Positions 3,400 to 9,893 of a DNA stretch of 53,050 nt are shown in pieces. Positions within the stretch are counted from its first letter, which is position 1. Each line of letters starts with the position of its first letter. Source of the stretch: a virus. Lineage: Duplodnaviria; Caudoviricetes. Under the pieces are notes generated by a model. The model saw nothing but the letters and a program-made list of their open reading frames with translations, was not told where the DNA came from and made no database searches. The translations under genes and the position numbers were made by a program. Where the stretch lies: the IMG/VR virus record IMGVR_UViG_3300037537_000966, positions 1 through 53,050 of that record. One strand, given 5' to 3'.

Positions 3400-3938
3400 T
3401 AAAGCATTAAAGAGTATGAAGAAACATATACAAGTTATATTTAAATTTAAATAAGTTTATTTATTTCTACTGGTTGTATCGCAAAGATATAATTACAAAT
3501 ATAGCCGCCTTTTTAAAAAAATTTAAAAATTTAATTTAATACTTTTTATCCTTCTTCTATTATCATATTCAATACTACTCAACATATAAGAAAGTATATT
3601 ATATTATTATTCTAATTTACTATTTATGAATGAATCGGCGCGAAATACTAATGCGCGGCATCCAAATACAATGCACGAACTAGGAATTTAATCAAGCCCT
3701 ATTTGTGAATGACTTTGCCCGAAATACTAATCAATGAGTCTCAAATATAGTGCCGCCGCCCTATAAAGTGACATTTTTCGGCGCACAACCCAAAAACAGT
3801 TACATTATTAAAAAAATCATCAAAGACAGCCCATTTATATCAAAATTTATTAAAATTTATTAAAACAACACAAACAGCCCCAATATAAGCAACCATATAA
3901 AATAACTTTTATTTAAGTTTATTAAAATTTTTTTATTA
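3400..3938. other. AT-rich non-coding region with short direct repeats (origin candidate)
   Basis: No ORF; CGAAATACTAAT at 3641 and 3720; tandem AAAATTTATT near 3842. Confidence 0.35.
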
Positions 3939-3975
3939 TTGACATTCGGTTCTGTTTATGAGACAATTAGGAGTG

Positions 3976-4230
3976 ATGACAATTAGAAAGAAAGGTTCTG
4001 GACGCACAAAGGGCGCGACGAGTCTAATAGAGGTCAACCTACGAGAGCTTAACCGTGTTCTCAAAGAAGATTGCGTAGTCATGGTCGGGCGCAAGTATGC
4101 AGAGCAACTTAATCTTGTTACTGGAAAGCGCATCGTATCTAATTATGCGAATGTATCGGCTGCTGCGCCTCTTGACGTACAAGAGACTGAAGTAGAGGAA
4201 AAGCTATCTGTTAAAAGTATTGACTTTTAA
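3976..4230 (+). CDS. hypothetical protein with basic N-terminus (RKKGSGRTKG)
   Basis: ORF track 3958-4230; promoter TTGACA-17-GACAAT at 3939-3967 favours ATG 3976. Confidence 0.7.
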   Translation: MTIRKKGSGRTKGATSLIEVNLRELNRVLKEDCVVMVGRKYAEQLNLVTGKRIVSNYANVSAAAPLDVQETEVEEKLSVKSIDF

Positions 4231-4248
4231 TCAAGACTCTGTTATACT
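4220..4248 (+). promoter_or_regulatory. sigma70-like promoter, leaderless
   Basis: TTGACT-17-TATACT with extended TG; ATG 6 nt downstream. Confidence 0.75.
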
Positions 4249-4254
4249 ACTTAA

Positions 4255-5184
4255 ATGGTTACTACTGAATTTCCAGATATTATTGGGCAAGACAATGCAA
4301 AGAGAGTCCTTAACTTTTTTTGTAATGGCTATAAACAGACCAGTATTATGCCTCACCTTATGTTTGTCGCGCCCAAGGGTTGCGGCAAAACAACTATGGC
4401 CAAGGCGACAGCGCGGCGGCTGAAGGCTATAAACAGGGACAAGAGGTATTTCGAGATAAACTGTTCTACGATTAAGAACGTAAAGCAGTTCTTCAATCAA
4501 CTCGTTATTCCCTATATGCAGGACAGGGATGCTACTATCTTGTTTGATGAATGCAGCGAGATTCCCAAGGATGTTACGATGGCGTTGCTGACCATCCTTA
4601 ACCCGAATCCAGACAACCGAACTTCCTTCACTTTGGAGGACTATACTGTTGACTTTGATTTTCGGCGGCTATCTTTCATGTTCGCCACAACCGAGACTCA
4701 ATCTGTATTCCATGCGTTGATGGACAGGCTGGAGCGCGTTGACCTAGAGGAATACACATTGGACGAGATGGGCAAAATTGTCTGCCTTAATCTGGACATT
4801 AAAGTTGAGCCGAAAGCATTAAAGGATATAGCATCTGTCTTGCGCGGCAATGCGAGAGCAGCACAAAAGATGGCTCAAAAAATTGATTCTTATTGCAAAC
4901 AGTATAAAATTAAAAGATTTGATTATCCTCATTGGAATAAATTAGGTAAGATATTAAGCATATATCCATTAGGTTTAAACATAACAGAAATTATATTGTT
5001 AAACATATTAAAAGATAATAAAGATTGTAGTTTAACTAAATTATCTGCAAAGACTGGTATATCTAAACAAGCAGTACAAAGAGATTTTGAAATCTATCTG
5101 CAAAAGCATAGCTTAATGGATATCACAACTGCTGGCAGAAACATAACAGCCAAAGGTTTGAAATATCTGAAGAAACTTGCTTGA
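4255..5184 (+). CDS. ruvB: RuvB-like AAA+ ATPase (Holliday junction branch migration family)
   Basis: Walker A APKGCGKTT, Walker B ILFDE, sensor ATT, Arg finger LMDRL, RGNAR (RuvB RGTPR), C-terminal LGL...TAGR winged helix. Confidence 0.8.
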   Translation: MVTTEFPDIIGQDNAKRVLNFFCNGYKQTSIMPHLMFVAPKGCGKTTMAKATARRLKAINRDKRYFEINCSTIKNVKQFFNQLVIPYMQDRDATILFDECSEIPKDVTMALLTILNPNPDNRTSFTLEDYTVDFDFRRLSFMFATTETQSVFHALMDRLERVDLEEYTLDEMGKIVCLNLDIKVEPKALKDIASVLRGNARAAQKMAQKIDSYCKQYKIKRFDYPHWNKLGKILSIYPLGLNITEIILLNILKDNKDCSLTKLSAKTGISKQAVQRDFEIYLQKHSLMDITTAGRNITAKGLKYLKKLA

Positions 5185-5209
5185 CATTGAAGTAAGTTAG
5201 TAGTATACT
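5181..5209 (+). promoter_or_regulatory. sigma70-like promoter
   Basis: TTGACA-17-TATACT; the -35 overlaps the TGA stop of the RuvB-like gene. Confidence 0.8.
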
Positions 5210-5256
5210 TAAGAAGTAGTCAGCGACTGACTCAAACAAAAATAAATAAATAGATC

Positions 5257-5436
5257 ATGGGAATGCGTAACCACACATATACGTTGGAAGTCGAACGCCA
5301 GACCGGCGGCGACTTGAAGATTAACTCGGCTCAACAGCTAGTTAAGGCAAATCAACATACCTCTCGTTACGAGAAGGTAAATAAGAAGGCTTTCTCGGCC
5401 GCTCTCAATGCGTCGAGTCCGCTTCGAACGCGTTAG
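5257..5436 (+). CDS. hypothetical protein (59 aa)
   Basis: Manual translation MGMRNHTYTLEVERQTGGDLKINSAQ...PLRTR. Confidence 0.65.
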   Translation: MGMRNHTYTLEVERQTGGDLKINSAQQLVKANQHTSRYEKVNKKAFSAALNASSPLRTR

Positions 5437-5446
5437 CGTTCAACAC

Positions 5447-5527
5447 GGGAGTCTCTGGCATGGTGCTGGACGAGATGTTCATGACAGGGTTAGTAGGTTA
5501 TCCTAGTGAAACACCAGAGTAACTCCC
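5447..5527 (+). ncRNA. candidate structured RNA motif, copy 1 (three-way junction)
   Basis: Stems GGGAGT/ACTCCC and CTCTGG/CCAGAG; core CATGGTG..ACAGGGTT..TGAAACA shared with 8666-8756. Confidence 0.6.
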
Positions 5528-5586
5528 CCTCTTTCTAGTCCGCCAATATAAAGTAGAGCTGGGCGCTCGTAAGGACATAGAGAACC

Positions 5587-5614
5587 AGACCCCGCTTCGG
5601 CGGGGTCTTTTTTT
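5587..5614 (+). terminator. intrinsic terminator
   Basis: AGACCCCGC-TTCG-GCGGGGTCT followed by T run. Confidence 0.9.
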
Positions 5615-5695
5615 GTTGCCCATTTTCCCCATTTATTGCAAATAAGGCAAATATAGTGTTATTCTAATGATATTCATTCTCAAGAAGGTCCATCC

Positions 5696-5770
5696 TAAGT
5701 CATTGATTACCAGAGAGTTACGGCGCGGCCCTCCCCCCCCGCGCGTAAGTCTTTGATGCTCAACGACTTA
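5696..5770. repeat. 75-bp double-palindrome element, copy 1
   Basis: TAAGTCATTG-attac-CAGAGAGTTA, 25-nt GC spacer, TAAGTCTTTG-atgct-CAACGACTTA. Confidence 0.9.
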
Positions 5771-5788
5771 TCGTGTCACTTTTAAGGC

Positions 5789-5900
5789 TTGACTTACGTA
5801 TCAGTGTATGGTATACTTATTGAAGTGAGTGCGGGAATGCTTAACATAAAAACAACCGAAGAAATTAAAGCTTGACTTTTAAAACAGTTACTGATATAAT
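5789..5900 (+). promoter_or_regulatory. two tandem sigma70-like promoters
   Basis: TTGACT-17-TATACT (5789-5817) and TTGACT-17-TATAAT (5872-5900). Confidence 0.8.
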
Positions 5901-5906
5901 AAAAAC

Positions 5907-6806
5907 ATGGCTAGAACTACAAGACCAACCACAGAGAACTACAATTTCGACGTTAAAATGACGGAGTTGTACACGCCAGACCAAAAACCAACAGGATTTT
6001 GGGGGACGCGCAGGACAGACACCGGCCAAGTGCTAGGTGTAACGAGTGACAAGTATGGCTTGTTGCTAAACAGCGACCTCATTGACTCTGTCGAAGGAGC
6101 TTTTTCCGATAGGAAATTAGACTTCGAGCGCAAAGTCTTTGTGGCTCGTGATGGTGCGAGTATGTACGCTCGCTATGACTTTCCCAATGAACAAGCGCGT
6201 ATTGGAGGTTCTCATAATGTCGGCGATACGCTTGGCATGAGAATCACCGCTCGTAACTCTTATGACCGTACTTGTACGGGCGACTTGGAATTGGGCTTGT
6301 TGCGGCTTATCTGCACCAACGGCATGAAGGGTGTCAAACGCGCCTTCGGTTTCAAGCAGAAGCATTCCCGCAAGTTGAATCTTGATGGGGTCGCTGGTGC
6401 TGTTGACCGAGCGATTGATGCCTTCGCTACTGTTGGGGAAGACCTCGGTCTGCTCGCAGATAGGTCTATTGACAACGACATTGGTGAGTACATTCTCAAG
6501 AATCTTGAGAGTGACAAAGTTCTCTCGACTAAACTTCGGGAGGAAATTGTGAAGTTGTGGTTCACGCCCGACATGATGCTCAACTATGGTAAAGGAGAGA
6601 AGGCAGAACGCAATCTGTACACTCTCTACAACTGCACGACTCAACATCTCACTCACAAAGTAGAGTCGGAGCGGTTTGAGTATGCGGATAAGGTCAACCA
6701 AAGCGTGTTGACTAAATTCGTGAAAGCTTGTAAGGAGAAAAAGACATGGGATAAGCTCACGCGCATCCCTACCGCGAAGGCGGAAGATGTCCTCGTTACG
6801 AGTTAG
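5907..6806 (+). CDS. DUF932 family protein
   Basis: RTDTG-x-VLG-x2-S-x2-Y, NSYDRT, LRLICTNG and KHS motifs. Confidence 0.8.
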   Translation: MARTTRPTTENYNFDVKMTELYTPDQKPTGFWGTRRTDTGQVLGVTSDKYGLLLNSDLIDSVEGAFSDRKLDFERKVFVARDGASMYARYDFPNEQARIGGSHNVGDTLGMRITARNSYDRTCTGDLELGLLRLICTNGMKGVKRAFGFKQKHSRKLNLDGVAGAVDRAIDAFATVGEDLGLLADRSIDNDIGEYILKNLESDKVLSTKLREEIVKLWFTPDMMLNYGKGEKAERNLYTLYNCTTQHLTHKVESERFEYADKVNQSVLTKFVKACKEKKTWDKLTRIPTAKAEDVLVTS

Positions 6807-6838
6807 TTAGCCGCGCCTTTGTGTGCGCGCAAATACAC

Positions 6839-6870
6839 GGGGGAGGTGCAACGCCTCCCCCTTTTCTTTT
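6839..6870 (+). terminator. terminator-like hairpin
   Basis: GGGGGAGG-TGCAACG-CCTCCCCC then TTTTCTTTT. Confidence 0.7.
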
Positions 6871-6944
6871 AACGGGGTAGCCAAGTGGTAAGGCGGGAGT
6901 CTGCAAAACTCTTATCGTGGGTTCGATTCCCACCCTCGTTTCCA
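6871..6944 (+). tRNA. tRNA-Cys (GCA)
   Basis: Acceptor AACGGGG/CCTCGTT, D arm GCC-AAGTGGTAA-GGC, anticodon loop CTGCAAA, T arm GTGGG-TTCGATT-CCCAC, U73 discriminator, encoded CCA. Confidence 0.95.
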
Positions 6945-7019
6945 TAAGTCATTGCCCACCAAAGAGTTACGGCGCGGGGGGAGGCCCGCCAACCTAAGTC
7001 TCTGATGCTCAGAGACTTA
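6945..7019. repeat. double-palindrome element, copy 2
   Basis: TAAGTCATTG-cccac-CAAAGAGTTA, 25-nt spacer, TAAGTCTCTG-atgct-CAGAGACTTA; starts directly after the tRNA CCA. Confidence 0.9.
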
Positions 7020-7037
7020 TCGTGTTACTTTTTAAGG

Positions 7038-7142
7038 TTGACATGGAGGCCAGTTCGTGTTATACTTTAAGAAGTTATGGGGAGTACGCACACAAAAACC
7101 GCACATATTTTGCTTGACACTTGAGGGGTTTTCTGCTATACT
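7038..7142 (+). promoter_or_regulatory. two tandem sigma70-like promoters
   Basis: TTGACA-17-TATACT at 7038-7066 and 7114-7142. Confidence 0.8.
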
Positions 7143-7152
7143 CTTTTGCGTT

Positions 7153-7788
7153 ATGAGACTTACTGTCAAACTTGCAGAGGGACGCGTTGGTTCACTTTCC
7201 ACACCGTCGAAGATGCCCGGATTTGGTTATAGCACACCAGCCGAGGACTGTATAAAAGGTTCAAAAATGCGGACAGTTGTTAATTCAATCTGTTCTTTTT
7301 GCTATGCGCTCAAAGGGCGTTACGTTTTCCCTAAAGTAAAGGCCGCACAGAAGAAACGGCTGAAGTCATTGGGGCAACTCGATTGGGTTGACATGATGGT
7401 TTTCATGATTAACAAGAGGGAGAAGACTGGCTTTTTCCGTTGGCATGATGCTGGTGACGTTCAAGGCATCTGGCATCTTGAAAAGATTGCAGAGGTTGCA
7501 AGGCGATTGCCTCACATTCAATTTTGGTTGCCTACGAGAGAATACTCCTTTGTTCGTGAGTGGATGGCTTTTGGTCGTAGGCCCGACAATCTTATTATTC
7601 GATTGTCTGCCCTGATGATGGACGGTGCGCCGCCTGTTAGTCTGGCGAAGCGTTTAGGCTTAACAACGAGCGGAGCAAGAACTGACGGAAGTTTCACCTG
7701 TCCGGCATCGGAGCAAGGCAACGAGTGCAAGGACTGCCGAGCCTGTTGGGACGATACGGTTGAAAACATTGATTACAAAAAGCATTGA
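7153..7788 (+). CDS. Gp88-like Cys-rich phage protein
   Basis: SKMPG, CSFCYALKG, FRWHDAGD, WLPTRE, CPA-x2-QG-x2-C-x2-C-x2-CW, terminal Y-x-KH; start set at the ATG after the promoter. Confidence 0.8.
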   Translation: MRLTVKLAEGRVGSLSTPSKMPGFGYSTPAEDCIKGSKMRTVVNSICSFCYALKGRYVFPKVKAAQKKRLKSLGQLDWVDMMVFMINKREKTGFFRWHDAGDVQGIWHLEKIAEVARRLPHIQFWLPTREYSFVREWMAFGRRPDNLIIRLSALMMDGAPPVSLAKRLGLTTSGARTDGSFTCPASEQGNECKDCRACWDDTVENIDYKKH

Positions 7789-7813
7789 CATTTGAACAAG
7801 TCAGAGGTATACT
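7785..7813 (+). promoter_or_regulatory. sigma70-like promoter
   Basis: TTGACA-17-TATACT overlapping the upstream TGA. Confidence 0.75.
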
Positions 7814-7821
7814 TAAAAGAG

Positions 7822-7893
7822 ATGAGCGTGATTTTCATTCTATTTCTAATATTTTTCGTGGCTTGGGGCTTGGACTACTTCAAGTATGATTAA
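7822..7893 (+). CDS. putative hydrophobic micropeptide (23 aa)
   Basis: MSVIFILFLIFFVAWGLDYFKYD, 8 nt after a -10 box, filling the gap between two promoters. Confidence 0.5.
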   Translation: MSVIFILFLIFFVAWGLDYFKYD

Positions 7894-7900
7894 TTAGTTC

Positions 7901-7929
7901 TTGACATTGAGGGCAAAATGTGCTATACT
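7901..7929 (+). promoter_or_regulatory. sigma70-like promoter
   Basis: TTGACA-17-TATACT followed by GCGAGTGAGAGAAA. Confidence 0.8.
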
Positions 7930-7963
7930 TTACCCAGCGAGTGAGAGAAAAACAAACTACAAA

Positions 7964-8395
7964 ATGGATACAAACATAACTTACTACAGACAGGTGTTCA
8001 GCAAAGACGATTGGGCAATAGGGATGGAGGGGACAGACCACGACTATATGGAACGTCGTTTCTGGGCGTTTTGGAACTGGAAAGCCACAAGCGGCAAACT
8101 CGATTGGTGGACAGACAACTTCGCCGTGTTCTGGACTGACGAAGCCAGATTCAAGCAAGCGGTGCTTGAGATATACAGGACGCAAGTCCTGCGCGATGTG
8201 GGAGCAGATACCTTGAAGGGACAGAAGGGCGGGGCAGATTTCTTTGCTCGTGATTGCGCGGATAGCTTTATGGACACGATGCTAAACGACGAGGTGTTCT
8301 ACACGGCGAAGATGAGGGCGATTGATACAACTACTCACGCAGAATTAACCATTGGCGCAGAGGACTTGAGCGATTACGACTCTGTTAAAGCGTAA
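7964..8395 (+). CDS. hypothetical protein
   Basis: ORF track 7901-8395; the track's TTG start is the -35 box, first ATG is 7964. Confidence 0.7.
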   Translation: MDTNITYYRQVFSKDDWAIGMEGTDHDYMERRFWAFWNWKATSGKLDWWTDNFAVFWTDEARFKQAVLEIYRTQVLRDVGADTLKGQKGGADFFARDCADSFMDTMLNDEVFYTAKMRAIDTTTHAELTIGAEDLSDYDSVKA

Positions 8396-8401
8396 GACTT
8401 T

Positions 8402-8659
8402 ATGACGAAAGCGAAAGAAGTTAGGAACGGGTGCTTGTATTATAACAAGCAGAGCAAAAGAGTAGAGCGGGCAATTGGTCGAGTAGGCAGGCGAATATTT
8501 ACGTACTGCCACGACACTGACCCTTCAGTGGTTAAGGTCGATAACCTGATCAAGGCTAGCTCTAAGCAGGTAACCAACTATTTGGATGCTCCAAATAAAG
8601 GGAGGAGCTCCAAGATCAGGCGTGCCCTGAAGACAATAAGCAGTTTGAAGATTTTTTGA
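8402..8659 (+). CDS. hypothetical basic protein
   Basis: ORF track. Confidence 0.7.
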   Translation: MTKAKEVRNGCLYYNKQSKRVERAIGRVGRRIFTYCHDTDPSVVKVDNLIKASSKQVTNYLDAPNKGRSSKIRRALKTISSLKIF

Positions 8660-8665
8660 TACAGT

Positions 8666-8756
8666 GTTGAGACCTCTCCGGCCATGGTGATCCGGGAGAG
8701 CCGGGTACAGGGTTTAGTTGTATCTCACCTTCATGAAACAGCCGGAAGGTCTCGAC
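8666..8756 (+). ncRNA. candidate structured RNA motif, copy 2
   Basis: Stems GTTGAGACCT/AGGTCTCGAC, TCCGGC/GCCGGA, ATCCGG/CCGGGT; same core as 5447-5527. Confidence 0.6.
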
Positions 8757-8760
8757 CCCT

Positions 8761-8834
8761 TAAACCCCTAAGTCGCAAAGACTTAGGGTGGGGGCCGGGG
8801 GCGGCTCCGTAACTCTCTCCGCACCAACGACTTA
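8761..8834. repeat. double-palindrome element, copy 3
   Basis: TAAACCCCTA-agtcg-CAAAGACTTA, 24-nt spacer, TAACTCTCTC-cgcac-CAACGACTTA. Confidence 0.8.
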
Positions 8835-8861
8835 CCTTTTAAAAAAACTTTAAAAAAAAGG

Positions 8862-8890
8862 TTGACATTTACACCTTAACGTGTTATACT
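8862..8890 (+). promoter_or_regulatory. sigma70-like promoter
   Basis: TTGACA-17-TATACT with upstream A tracts. Confidence 0.85.
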
Positions 8891-8897
8891 ATTGGAA

Positions 8898-9026
8898 GTG
8901 AGTGAGAGAAAACAACCAAAGGTTCGCAAGCAGGTGAAATGGAACACCGGCGAACGCATTCACAAAACTAAAAAAGGAAAAGGCTCTTATGATCGCAAAA
9001 CTGATAAACCCAAAGAAGATAACTGA
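8898..9026 (+). CDS. ArfA-like small basic protein (42 aa)
   Basis: GTG start 7 nt after the -10; MSERKQPKVRKQVKWNTGERIHKTKKGKGSYDRKTDKPKEDN carries the ArfA motif KKGKGSY-x-RK. Confidence 0.65.
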   Translation: MSERKQPKVRKQVKWNTGERIHKTKKGKGSYDRKTDKPKEDN

Positions 9027-9570
9027 CTTCAACAGAACAAAAGCAGACCTTGAATTGTTTGCTATTTTTGCTGTCTGTGTTGCCGGAAAGAAGTCACAAC
9101 AAACTGCTGACAAAGTCAACGACCATTTCAGGGACACGGAGACACCAACCAAACGACTCACACCTTTCGAGACTATCAAAAGCCTTGTCAAGATAAGAGT
9201 TTTCGGAGCCTATTTGCAGATGGCAAAGGTTGGGCAATACAAAAGGATTTACAGAGCGTTAAGAGACTTGGCTGAATCTGGTATTGATTTGAAGACTTGC
9301 ACAGTTGAAGACCTTGAAGCAATTCATGGCATCGGGCCAAAGACAGCAAGGTTTATTATTATGCATTCCAGACCTTATCAAAGGCTGGCAACCTTAGACA
9401 CTCACATTTTAAAATGGATGAGAGACCAAGGGATCAAAACCCCAAAAGCAACGCCACAGAGTCAAAAATTATATAAAGAATTAGAACAAAAGTTCTTGAC
9501 ATTATGCGATAACTGTGGTATGATACCTTCTCAGTTAGACTTAGAGATATGGAAACAATACAGCAAATAG
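8989..9570 (+). CDS. HhH-family DNA glycosylase, Ogg2-like (8-oxoguanine)
   Basis: HhH IHGIGPKTARF with catalytic-position Lys, LDTHIL Asp, Y-x-ELE, LDLEIW, terminal Lys. Confidence 0.7.
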   Translation: MIAKLINPKKITDFNRTKADLELFAIFAVCVAGKKSQQTADKVNDHFRDTETPTKRLTPFETIKSLVKIRVFGAYLQMAKVGQYKRIYRALRDLAESGIDLKTCTVEDLEAIHGIGPKTARFIIMHSRPYQRLATLDTHILKWMRDQGIKTPKATPQSQKLYKELEQKFLTLCDNCGMIPSQLDLEIWKQYSK

Positions 9571-9893
9571 AAAAACCTAAATTCGCCTCTGCGCCTGATT
9601 GGCCGGGATTCTCAATGACATTCAAGAATGGTTGGGAGATATCGGTTCAGTTTGGTGGAGGGCACTACTGCTCCAACAGAATGAAGGATAGTTCATCCAG
9701 ACAGAGCGAGACAGCAGAGGTCGCTATCTTCGCTCCTGATAAAGATGGTTTCCCTAGAGAGTGGTGGTCATACGACGAAGACATTGACAATGTAGTCGAG
9801 CAGCCAGATGAGAGCTTTGTAAATGGTTGGCTAACAACTGACCAAGTAGCGAGTATAATAAATATAATATCTAATAAAAATGAGACTAAATAA
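9549..9893 (+). CDS. hypothetical phage protein
   Basis: ORF track; F-x-NG-x2-ISVQ and AEVA pattern. Confidence 0.75.
   Translation: METIQQIEKPKFASAPDWPGFSMTFKNGWEISVQFGGGHYCSNRMKDSSSRQSETAEVAIFAPDKDGFPREWWSYDEDIDNVVEQPDESFVNGWLTTDQVASIINIISNKNETK

What the first reader, a model, noticed from the sequence alone, without database searches (positions are those of the whole stretch)
5447..8756. Duplicated three-way-junction RNA motif with compensatory changes in 3' UTRs
Seen: 5447-5527 and 8666-8756 each begin 6-10 nt after a stop codon. They share the core CATGGTG / GAGA-N loop / ACAGGGTT / CCT / TGAAACA, while the stems differ in sequence yet still pair (P1 CTCTGG-CCAGAG vs TCCGGC-GCCGGA; P2 TGGAC-GTTCA vs ATCCGG-CCGGGT; P3 AGGGT-ATCCT vs AGGGT-ACCTT). 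Conserved junctions with covarying stems is the usual signature of a functional RNA. I cannot assign it to a known family. Inference: a self-cleaving ribozyme, processing signal or protein-binding sRNA.
Basis: partly seen in the sequence, partly recalled or inferred. Interest (0 to 1): 0.72.

Follow-up and report, generated by a model that had tools for sequence, protein, structure and literature searches.

The report
Uncatalogued phage RNA fold near tRNAs
The two stretches are copies of a small, very conserved folded RNA that recurs in hundreds of uncultured phage genomes, often right beside tRNA genes, matches no catalogued RNA family, and has no known job yet.

Summary
Window 5447-5527 and 8666-8756 (+ strand) are the only two copies in this 53-kb viral contig (covariance models: 58.6/68.8 and 45.0/68.5 bits; next best under 15 bits).

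The refined fold is: long stem P1, then CAUG-GUG, then a 6-bp stem P2 with an invariant GAGAN loop, then AC, then a variable hairpin P3, then CAUG-AAACA, then P1'. A model hit 100 of 100 such loci and 0 of 100 control viral loci.

P1, P2 and P3 all covary; 0 of 500 shuffles reach the observed score. G-U pairs outnumber A-C mismatches 46 to 5, so the motif strand acts as RNA. No Rfam 15 family matches, even at E up to 10.

No protein family is a constant neighbour. tRNA genes lie within 3-25 nt far more often than chance.

Function is untested. My best reading is a free-standing, processed small RNA that binds a conserved partner (0.45). The main rival is a new self-cleaving ribozyme class (0.25).

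The parts
5181..5209 (+). Sigma-70-like promoter (TTGACA-17-TATACT, 11 of 12) that would start the short unit ending in copy 1
   Evidence: Consensus scan. The same promoter and 5' hairpin recur in relatives. This is a consensus match only; no transcription start was shown.
5257..5436 (+). 59-aa ORF directly upstream of copy 1 (stop TAG 5434-5436). A real gene of unknown function.
   Evidence: There are 16 homologues in relatives. Differences from the window fall mainly at third codon positions, e.g. 4/1/17 and 5/4/18. No Pfam or PHROG match.
5447..5527 (+). Motif copy 1. P1 5' strand 5447-5458; CAUGGUG 5459-5465; P2 5466-5483 (loop GAGAU 5472-5476); AC 5484-5485; P3 5486-5504; AGUG-AAACA 5505-5513; P1 3' strand 5514-5527 (UAA bulge 5520-5522).
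   Evidence: Sequence. Model R1 58.6 bits, E 8.9e-14. Model R2 45.0 bits, E 2e-12. P1 extension.
5587..5615 (+). Intrinsic-terminator-like hairpin (9 pairs, 7 G-C) with a U run, about 60 nt after copy 1
   Evidence: Relatives of this lineage have such a terminator 15-69 nt after the motif.
6871..6944 (+). tRNA-Cys (GCA) between the two copies. In relatives L199 and L265 the second motif copy starts 12-14 nt after this tRNA.
   Evidence: ARAGORN; Rfam tRNA 65.4 bits; relatives.
8402..8659 (+). 85-aa ORF directly upstream of copy 2 (stop TGA 8657-8659). Conserved in 8 relatives. Not detectably related to the ORF before copy 1.
   Evidence: BLASTP gave no alignment. hhalign probability 1.3%. No Pfam or PHROG match.
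8666..8756 (+). Motif copy 2. P1 5' strand 8666-8682; CAUGGUG 8683-8689; P2 8690-8706 (loop GAGAG 8696-8700); AC 8707-8708; P3 8709-8731; CAUG-AAACA 8732-8740; P1 3' strand 8741-8756.
   Evidence: Sequence. Model R1 68.8 bits, E 1.4e-16. Model R2 68.5 bits, E 2.8e-20. The minimum-energy fold pairs the two CAUG runs.
8756..8794 (+). Strong hairpin after copy 2 (inner stem 8766-8788, loop GCAAA) with no U run. Conserved in relatives. Role unknown.
   Evidence: Fold. The same CCUAAGUC...GACUUAGG hairpins follow the motif in L199, L265, L221 and L282.
8862..8890 (+). Next sigma-70-like promoter (TTGACA-17-TATACT). It marks the end of the unit that holds copy 2.

Best explanation
What is shown:
- Both stretches are copies of one RNA family that is not in Rfam.
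- It is a 63-108-nt three-stem RNA read from the + strand. The order is: long closing stem P1; CAUG-GUG; a 6-bp stem P2 capped by an invariant GAGA+N loop; AC; a variable hairpin P3; CAUG-AAACA; back into P1.
- The family is a free-standing module. It has no constant protein-coding neighbour, and it occurs after unrelated genes, inside tRNA clusters and sometimes on the opposite strand from its neighbours.

What is inferred from consensus scans:
- In this phage each copy is the last element of a short early unit: strong promoter, small ORF, motif, then a terminator or hairpin.

What is inferred and untested:
- The two CAUG runs pair as a 4-bp helix (P1a). That leaves AAACA as a 5-nt bulge and makes a tight three-way junction (GUG / AC / none).
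- The folded module is released and trimmed by the host enzymes that mature the neighbouring tRNAs: RNase P at the 5' end of the following tRNA, then 3' trimming back to the long P1.
- It persists as a stable small RNA.
- Its invariant junction, bulge and GAGA loop form the surface or pocket for a partner that is the same in very different hosts, either a small ligand or a core host or defence protein.
For: Real and specific:
- There are 2 copies in the window and nothing else above 15 bits.
- Model R2 hits 100 of 100 pattern-found viral loci (104 matches) and 0 of 100 control viral loci, 851,973 bases.

Structure:
- In A4 (74 distinct sequences), 92.9% of cells pair versus 55.7% when shuffled. 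The covariation score is 0.910 versus 0.207, reached by 0 of 500 shuffles.
- The 13 highest mutual-information column pairs are exactly the 13 P1 and P2 pairs.
- In A6 (95 sequences), all 8 P1, 6 P2 and 4 P3 pairs change on both sides. The score is 0.719 versus 0.182, reached by 0 of 500 shuffles; slid controls score at most 0.153.

RNA on the motif strand: G-U/U-G 46 versus A-C/C-A 5 in P1 and P2.

Invariant core in 89 distinct sequences: GAGA 89 of 89, AAACA 88-89 of 89, and C of AC 89 of 89. Part of this is forced by the search pattern.

Not coding: the two window copies put the shared core in different reading frames, by my reading, and stem lengths vary by non-multiples of 3.

Free-standing:
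- 150 neighbouring ORFs from 43 lineages share no family. The best is GP88, in 2 members.
- The upstream ORFs form 27 unrelated clusters.
- Neighbour strands at 55 scored junctions: +,+ 32; +,- 13; -,- 6; -,+ 4.

tRNA link:
- First set: a same-strand tRNA lies within 25 nt in 8 of 62 sources, about 6 lineages. These include a 21-tRNA array followed by three tandem copies with 4-, 9- and 10-nt gaps.
- Second, independent set: 9 of 89 motifs have a tRNA within 11 nt, although the 86 loci (720,311 bases) hold only 32 tRNAs. By my arithmetic, about 0.1 would be expected.

Long closing stem: median about 12 pairs, range 6-21, by my script.

Precedent: GOLLD and ROOL are phage-linked RNAs near tRNAs, possibly co-transcribed with them (PMC5737381, passage read).
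Against: - No expression, end-mapping or stability data exist. The only RNA-library contigs that touch the region are low-depth relatives, and they cannot show ends.
- No partner is known.
- Most copies (about 145 of about 160 examined) are not next to a tRNA, so tRNA-coupled maturation cannot be the general route.
- A compact junction with about 20 invariant nucleotides fits a ribozyme or an aptamer equally well.
- The P1a pairing has no compensatory change. The 5' CAUG is invariant, partly by how the set was collected. In the less biased set, 41 of 74 sequences pair 4 of 4 positions, 24 pair 3 of 4, and 9 pair fewer.
- All member sets were seeded by exact patterns, so core invariance is overstated.
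Confidence: 0.45

Rival explanations
1. A new class of self-cleaving ribozyme. The invariant junction, AAACA bulge and GAGA loop would form an active site, and cleavage would separate transcripts or help shape the ends of neighbouring tRNAs and mRNAs.
For: - It is small and has about 20 near-invariant nucleotides concentrated at a junction.
- The context is phage-only, intergenic, 1-3 copies per genome, sometimes tandem.
- It lies next to viral tRNAs, as reported for HDV-like theta ribozymes (PMC10879173 and its preprint; abstracts seen in the listing).
- It has no gene-specific association, which is also typical of known phage ribozymes.
Against: - No known ribozyme model matches, even at E up to 10.
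- The motif lies on either side of tRNAs, with 3-15-nt gaps, so no single cleavage site would give a mature tRNA end.
- In the window lineage it is followed by a terminator. Weinberg et al. 2017 considered that arrangement at odds with self-cleavage for comparable motifs, and three such motifs did not cleave in their tests (PMC5737381, passage read).
- A very long P1 would hold cleavage products together.
Confidence: 0.25
2. A cis-acting RNA processing or stability signal. The long P1 (with P1a and P3 stacked on it) would be a double-strand target or barrier for host RNases such as RNase III. Cutting or stalling there would leave a protective 3' structure on the upstream mRNA.
For: - It starts 3-23 nt after a same-strand stop codon in 47 of 77 matches; many of these belong to one lineage.
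- In the window it ends short early units just before a terminator.
- P1 has a median of about 12 pairs.
- By recall only, phage T7 RNase III sites are likewise intergenic irregular hairpins.
Against: - A nuclease barrier does not need an invariant 6-bp P2 with a GAGA loop, or about 20 fixed nucleotides, kept across phages of 37-75% G+C.
- It also occurs inside tRNA arrays and antisense to its neighbours.
Confidence: 0.15
3. A riboswitch or other cis-regulatory leader for the gene downstream. The junction would bind a metabolite and P1 would control a terminator or ribosome-binding site.
For: - The architecture is aptamer-like.
- In the window lineage a terminator follows at 15-69 nt.
- In several GC-rich loci the next ORF starts 27-52 nt downstream.
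Against: - There is no recurrent downstream gene class.
- The downstream neighbour is a tRNA or a gene on the other strand in many loci.
- A terminator-like site lies within 120 nt in only 5 of 89 motifs, and a U run follows P1 in 3 of 74.
- P1 is long and stable, with no visible alternative pairing.
Confidence: 0.05
4. A DNA-level or mobile element, such as a recombination or packaging site or a small insertion, whose stems are an inverted repeat rather than an RNA fold.
For: The position differs between close relatives: copy 2 follows an 85-aa ORF in the window but follows tRNA-Cys in L199 and L265. Gene cassettes around it are mosaic.
Against: - The mismatch spectrum is strand-specific: G-U 46 versus A-C 5.
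- The three-stem fold has a conserved single-stranded core.
- It is co-oriented with tRNAs and placed at tRNA-like spacing.
- I did not look for target-site duplications.
Confidence: 0.03

Closest known systems
GOLLD and ROOL RNAs (large phage-linked ncRNAs)
   Same: Structured RNAs of unknown function, often in prophages and often near tRNA genes, possibly co-transcribed with them (PMC5737381, passage read).
   Different: They are several hundred nucleotides long with many stems. This motif is 63-108 nt with three stems. Rfam holds both families and neither matches.
drum, skipping-rope, DUF3800-I and FuFi-1 motifs (Weinberg et al. 2017)
   Same: Small, highly conserved multi-stem RNAs that look like ribozymes or riboswitches, are rarely in 5' UTRs and are followed by terminators (PMC5737381, passage read). 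This matches the window lineage.
   Different: Three of those motifs go with one protein family nearby; here none does. There is no Rfam match. Outside the window lineage a terminator is rare: 5 of 89.
Theta (HDV-like) ribozymes of gut phages
   Same: Small phage RNAs found next to viral tRNAs (abstracts of PMC10879173 and its preprint, seen in the listing).
   Different: The HDV fold is a nested double pseudoknot. All helices supported here are simply nested. The motif lies on either side of tRNAs. Rfam's HDV-type models give no match at E up to 10.
tRNA
   Same: Similar size, a long stem closing the 5' and 3' ends, and tRNA-like spacing inside tRNA arrays, with 4-10-nt gaps.
   Different: It has three stems, not four, and a 5-nt GAGAN loop instead of a 7-nt anticodon loop. 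ARAGORN does not call it as a tRNA at either window copy nor at the motif instances shown. The Rfam tRNA model does not match it either.
Phage P1/P7 C4 antisense RNA and other RNase-P-processed phage small RNAs (recalled, not checked by any search)
   Same: Small stable phage RNAs closed by a terminal stem and cut out of longer transcripts by tRNA-processing enzymes. This is the maturation route I propose.
   Different: C4 is in Rfam by my recollection, and nothing matched. No target complementary to the loops was sought here.
Hairpin ribozyme loop B (sequence recalled, not checked by any search)
   Same: AGAAACA on one strand and GUAU... on the other, flanking a helix. This resembles GAAACA-P1-(G)YAUGG in the motif.
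   Different: Those strands sit in an internal loop of a four-way-junction ribozyme that also has a loop A. No loop A equivalent exists here, and Rfam's hairpin models do not match.

Membership tests
Any Rfam 15 family (4227 models) | Score at or above the family's gathering threshold, or at least a consistent weak match over the motif | tested here: not met
   At gathering threshold, the window gave only tRNA at 6871-6941, and 38 relative loci gave only tRNAs. At E up to 10 on both window copies and 12 further loci, nothing consistent lay over the motif. The best overlaps were ceN106 at 17.7 bits (E 0.33) on the 5' flank and bxd_1 at 9.6 bits.
tRNA | Cloverleaf with a 7-nt anticodon loop, detected by ARAGORN or Rfam RF00005 | tested here: not met
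   ARAGORN and RF00005 call the neighbouring tRNAs but never the motif. The P2 loop is 5 nt.
Hammerhead ribozyme | Three-way junction with the CUGANGA ... GAAA ... H core strands | tested here: not met
   The junction strands are CAUGGUG, AC and CAUGAAACA. No hammerhead model matched at E up to 10. The core consensus itself is recalled.
HDV-like / theta ribozyme | Nested double pseudoknot (P1, P1.1, P2, P3, P4) with cleavage at the 5' end | tested here: inconclusive
   All covarying helices are nested, and no HDV-type Rfam match was found. Pseudoknots among invariant nucleotides cannot be excluded by covariation. Cleavage is not testable here.
Riboswitch | Sits in the 5' UTR of a recurrent gene class, with an expression platform | tested here: not met
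   No recurrent neighbour among 150 ORFs. Neighbours are often tRNAs or genes on the other strand. A terminator follows in 5 of 89.
Intrinsic terminator | G+C-rich stem directly followed by a U run | tested here: not met
   At least 6 U in the 10 nt after P1 in only 3 of 74. In the window a separate terminator lies about 60 nt downstream.
Self-cleaving ribozyme (any class) | Site-specific self-scission in the absence of protein | not testable with these tools
   Needs an in-vitro transcription and cleavage assay.
Short peptide gene | Conserved reading frame across copies | tested here: not met
   The shared core falls in different frames in the two window copies, by my reading. Stem and loop lengths vary by non-multiples of 3.

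The most novel reading that the evidence does not exclude
The motif is a new class of functional RNA with chemistry of its own. Either it is a further class of self-cleaving ribozyme, or it is a phage-made aptamer that soaks up a small molecule or protein of the host (for example an immune signal or a tRNA-directed defence enzyme), expressed early from strong promoters and from tRNA operons.
Probability: 0.3. Interest if true: 0.9.

Novelty: categorically new. Interest (0 to 1): 0.78.

Why it matters
Small RNAs with about 20 invariant nucleotides packed around a junction have usually turned out to be ribozymes, riboswitch aptamers or parts of RNA-protein machines. This one is abundant in uncultured tailed phages, from marine contigs at 37-50% G+C to contigs at 60-75% G+C. 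It is absent from Rfam and travels with viral tRNA genes.

It gives a well-defined, short and cheaply testable candidate for a new RNA function in phage infection. It would also add a non-tRNA member to phage tRNA clusters, whose purpose is itself debated.

The two models built here (R1, R2) and the alignments (A4, A6, A7) are enough to seed a family.

Caveat: the motif may already sit, unnamed, among the 8,495 IMG/VR candidates of Fremin et al. 2023 (PMC10690425). I could not open that paper's supplementary tables.

Tried and rejected
- **Known family.** Rfam at gathering and at E up to 10 gave nothing.
- **GenBank phages.** megablast of 5200-9000 found no match. Distant blastn of six motif instances gave only short chance matches. 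The four followed up (L417-L420) score at most 15.6 bits with R2. BLAST cannot see this motif, so its absence from cultured phages is not shown.
- **Haloarchaeal virus lead.** HVTV-1 and HCTV-5 gave weak blastn hits, and HVTV-1 has the same length (102,319) as the contig behind L128. The hits lie inside a gene. R1 finds nothing in either genome. L128 does not match them. I treat this as coincidence.
- **Protein partner.** The two window ORFs upstream of the copies are not related. No shared family was found among 150 neighbours.
- **Micro-ORF reading.** Rejected: the frames differ.
- **3'-of-operon enrichment.** Convergent junctions hold the motif in 13 of 55 cases, against 85 of 592 other junctions (Fisher p = 0.076, with crude ORF calls). 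This is not significant and I do not claim it.
- **Cellular genomes.** The narrow ACAGGGTT pattern gave 29 loci in 185,579 species genomes, of which 1 is a real motif (L153, an Acidobacteriaceae MAG contig). The broad pattern found 0 of 401 genomes of that phylum. The broad family was not surveyed across all cellular genomes.
- **Sequencing runs.** 24 runs hold the stretch; 2 are RNA libraries, with a 0.06 share. When laid, they give a few low-depth contigs of relatives over 5304-5502, 6228-6802 and 8188-8434, with no ends, so there is no verdict on expression or processing.
- **Earlier findings of this scan.** Three look-ups returned nothing.
- **Literature.** Five searches turned up no description of this motif.
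  - PMC10879173: listing and abstract seen; my find terms gave 0 passages.
  - PMC5737381: passages read.
  - PMC10690425: passages read; its supplements are closed.
  - Preprint 10.64898/2026.09.22.753630: only the listing was seen; the look-up failed.
- **Tertiary ideas.** Resemblances to the 11-nt tetraloop receptor (UAUGG), boxB pentaloops, T-loops and a K-turn were considered from memory. None fits the conserved strands, and none was tested.

Full report
**What is in the window.** The window is a 53,050-base IMG/VR virus record, about 36% complete by CheckV. It encodes a large terminase and many proteins without PHROG matches.

Copy 1 spans 5447-5527 and starts 10 nt after the TAG stop of a 59-aa ORF. 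Copy 2 spans 8666-8756 and starts 6 nt after the TGA stop of an 85-aa ORF. The two-part words CATGGTG...ACAGGGTT and ACAGGGTT...GAAACA each occur exactly twice, both on the + strand. No shuffle of 100 gives two matches.

Folding energy alone is unremarkable for copy 1 (z = -1.34) and moderate for copy 2 (z = -2.85). The reverse strands fold worse against their own shuffles, with z = -0.31 and -1.80. Rfam 15 gives only the tRNA-Cys at 6871-6941. It gives nothing meaningful over either copy at E up to 10.

**Relatives.** A loose two-part pattern returned 118 viral loci, none of which had the third element. I kept these as negative-control DNA. A three-part pattern returned 19 viral loci. By inspection 14 (12 distinct) have complementary flanks and a complementary P2, and 5 are chance matches.

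Patterns that free the 3' half or the 5' half added more members. Among them is a subtype with G-UAUGGUG ... GAAACA-AA. The same half-pattern found 29 loci in 185,579 species genomes, of which only one is real (L153, in a MAG).

A covariance model, R1, built from 31 sequences, finds only the two known copies in the window: 68.8 and 58.6 bits, with the next hit at 14.8. In the fetched loci it finds further copies that no pattern had selected. Those extra copies showed that ACAGGGUU is not conserved. They carry GGC/GCC, GGCC/GGUC or CCU/AGG in its place.

**The refined family.** I therefore freed that segment, using CATGGTG-N6-GAGA-N(6-9)-AC-N(12-42)-CATGAAACA. These gave 96 distinct sequences, almost all with visibly complementary flanks.

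In 60 of 96, a helix starts directly after AC and ends directly before CAUG. In 93 of 96 that helix has at least 3 pairs. A second model, R2, built from 95 sequences with four helices, matches all 100 of the first 100 new loci. It gives 104 matches, so four loci have a second copy. It matches none of 100 control viral loci, 851,973 bases. In the window it again finds just the two copies, at 68.5 and 45.0 bits, with the next hit at 9.3.

**Structure.** In A4 (74 distinct sequences), 92.9% of cells pair against 55.7% after shuffling. The covariation score is 0.910 against 0.207, and 0 of 500 shuffles reach it. The 13 strongest mutual-information pairs are exactly the P1 and P2 pairs.

In A6 (95 sequences), every pair of P1 (8), P2 (6) and P3 (4) shows two-sided changes. 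The score is 0.719 against 0.182, again reached by 0 of 500 shuffles, and slid controls give at most 0.153. These alignments were seeded by exact patterns and fitted to models. That inflates core invariance, but not the stem covariation.

G-U/U-G pairs outnumber A-C/C-A mismatches 46 to 5, so the motif strand works as RNA. P2 is always 6 pairs, with an occasional bulge, and has a 5-nt GAGAN loop. N is U in 55, G in 21, A in 9 and C in 4 of 89 sequences. P1 is long, with a median of about 12 pairs and a range of 6-21.

The two CAUG runs are self-complementary and could form a 4-bp helix. That would make AAACA a bulge and the junction GUG/AC/none. In the less biased set, 41 of 74 sequences can pair 4 of 4 positions and 24 can pair 3 of 4. 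There is no compensatory change, so this helix is a proposal.

**Not a peptide, terminator or leader.** The shared core lies in different frames in the two window copies, and the stems vary in length by non-multiples of three. A U run follows P1 in 3 of 74 sequences. A terminator-like site lies within 120 nt in 5 of 89.

**Context in the window.** The region 3800-9600 holds eleven promoter-like sites with at least 10 of 12 matches, most of them TTGACA-17-TATACT. One at 5181-5209 precedes the 59-aa ORF, copy 1 and a strong terminator at 5587-5608. This makes a unit of about 400 nt. That ORF is a real gene: its differences from relatives fall mainly at third codon positions.

Copy 2 follows the 85-aa ORF. 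After it come a strong hairpin without a U run and the next promoter at 8862. The two upstream ORFs are conserved in the lineage but are not related to each other. Neither has a Pfam or PHROG match.

**Context in the family.** The motif starts 3-23 nt after a same-strand stop codon in many loci, but the ORFs before it fall into 27 unrelated clusters. Of 150 neighbouring ORFs from 43 lineages, no Pfam family occurs more than twice. Three complete phage genomes carry one copy each.

The one recurrent neighbour is tRNA. In the first set, a same-strand tRNA lies within 25 nt in 8 of 62 sources, about 6 lineages. One case is a 21-tRNA array followed by three tandem copies separated by 4-, 9- and 10-nt gaps.

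The second set was collected independently of the first. It has 86 loci with 720,311 bases and only 32 tRNAs. Even so, 9 of 89 motifs have a tRNA within 11 nt, where by my arithmetic about 0.1 would be expected. Six of these are on the same strand, mostly in the order motif, 3-8 nt, tRNA. Three face tRNAs on the other strand. In a few loci all neighbours are on the opposite strand.

Taken together, this is the behaviour of a free-standing RNA gene or module, distributed much as phage tRNA genes are.

**What it may do.** Nothing here measures function. I favour (0.45) a stable small RNA released from mRNA or tRNA precursors by host processing enzymes and protected by its long P1. Its invariant junction, bulge and loop would bind a partner common to very different hosts.

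A new self-cleaving ribozyme class is the main rival (0.25). It fits the size, the conservation, the phage context and the tRNA adjacency that is known for theta ribozymes. It does not fit the placement on either side of tRNAs, or the terminators that follow the motif in this lineage.

A nuclease processing or stability signal (0.15) explains the position after stop codons but not the invariant P2 loop. A riboswitch (0.05) and a DNA-level element (0.03) fit poorly.

**Comparison with what is known.** The closest kinds are the orphan phage-linked RNAs. GOLLD and ROOL lie near tRNAs. The small drum, skipping-rope, DUF3800-I and FuFi-1 motifs are highly conserved, followed by terminators, and not self-cleaving when tested (PMC5737381, passages read). 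All of these are in Rfam and none matches.

Five literature searches found no description of this motif. It may be one of the unnamed IMG/VR candidates of PMC10690425, whose supplements I could not read. On this basis I rate it as a new family with no known relatives, and of high interest to RNA biologists because it is short and directly testable.

Noticed in passing
window 3800-9600: There are eleven near-consensus sigma-70-like promoters (at least 10 of 12 matches), most of them TTGACA-17-TATACT, all on the + strand. Sixteen promoter-like sites were found, against 8.8 expected. The region looks like a chain of very short early transcription units.
   Followed up: partly
window 5212-5235, and the same place in 15 relatives: A conserved short hairpin (GUAGUCAG...CUGACU) lies right after the -10 box, at the predicted 5' end of the transcript that carries copy 1. 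It is followed by an A-rich leader without a Shine-Dalgarno sequence.
   Followed up: no
window 8756-8794; L199 and L265 downstream of their second copy: One or two strong CCUAAGUC...GACUUAGG hairpins without a U run follow copy 2 and are conserved in relatives. They may be a second RNA element or a non-canonical terminator.
   Followed up: no
window 5257-5436 and 15 homologues: The small protein before copy 1 has a conserved core (LEVER..GG.LK..SA.QLV..NQH..YE.VNK.AF). Its C-terminal tails differ in length and are very basic in some relatives. No family match was found.
   Followed up: partly
L195:1345-4604: This metagenome contig carries about 21 tRNA genes in one array, immediately followed by three tandem, diverged motif copies.
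   Followed up: partly
L330, L321, L388 (downstream of the motif, opposite strand): ARAGORN calls one or two tRNA-Phe genes with the unusual anticodon AAA, convergent with the motif. Their identity was not checked.
   Followed up: no
window 5327-5580, 6851-6977 and 8756-9000: In two DNA metagenome runs, summed contig depth is 10-60 times higher over these segments than over the rest. The segments are the end of the small ORF plus copy 1, the tRNA-Cys, and the hairpin and promoter after copy 2. They appear to be shared by many related genomes in the sample.
   Followed up: no
window 5907-6806 and 7057-7788: Genes for DUF932 and GP88-family proteins lie between the two copies. GP88 also lies near the motif in 2 other lineages. 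The numbers are too small to call it an association.
   Followed up: partly
L312 (8346-8415 + and 10174-10245 -): Two motif copies lie on opposite strands, 1.8 kb apart, in one viral contig.
   Followed up: no
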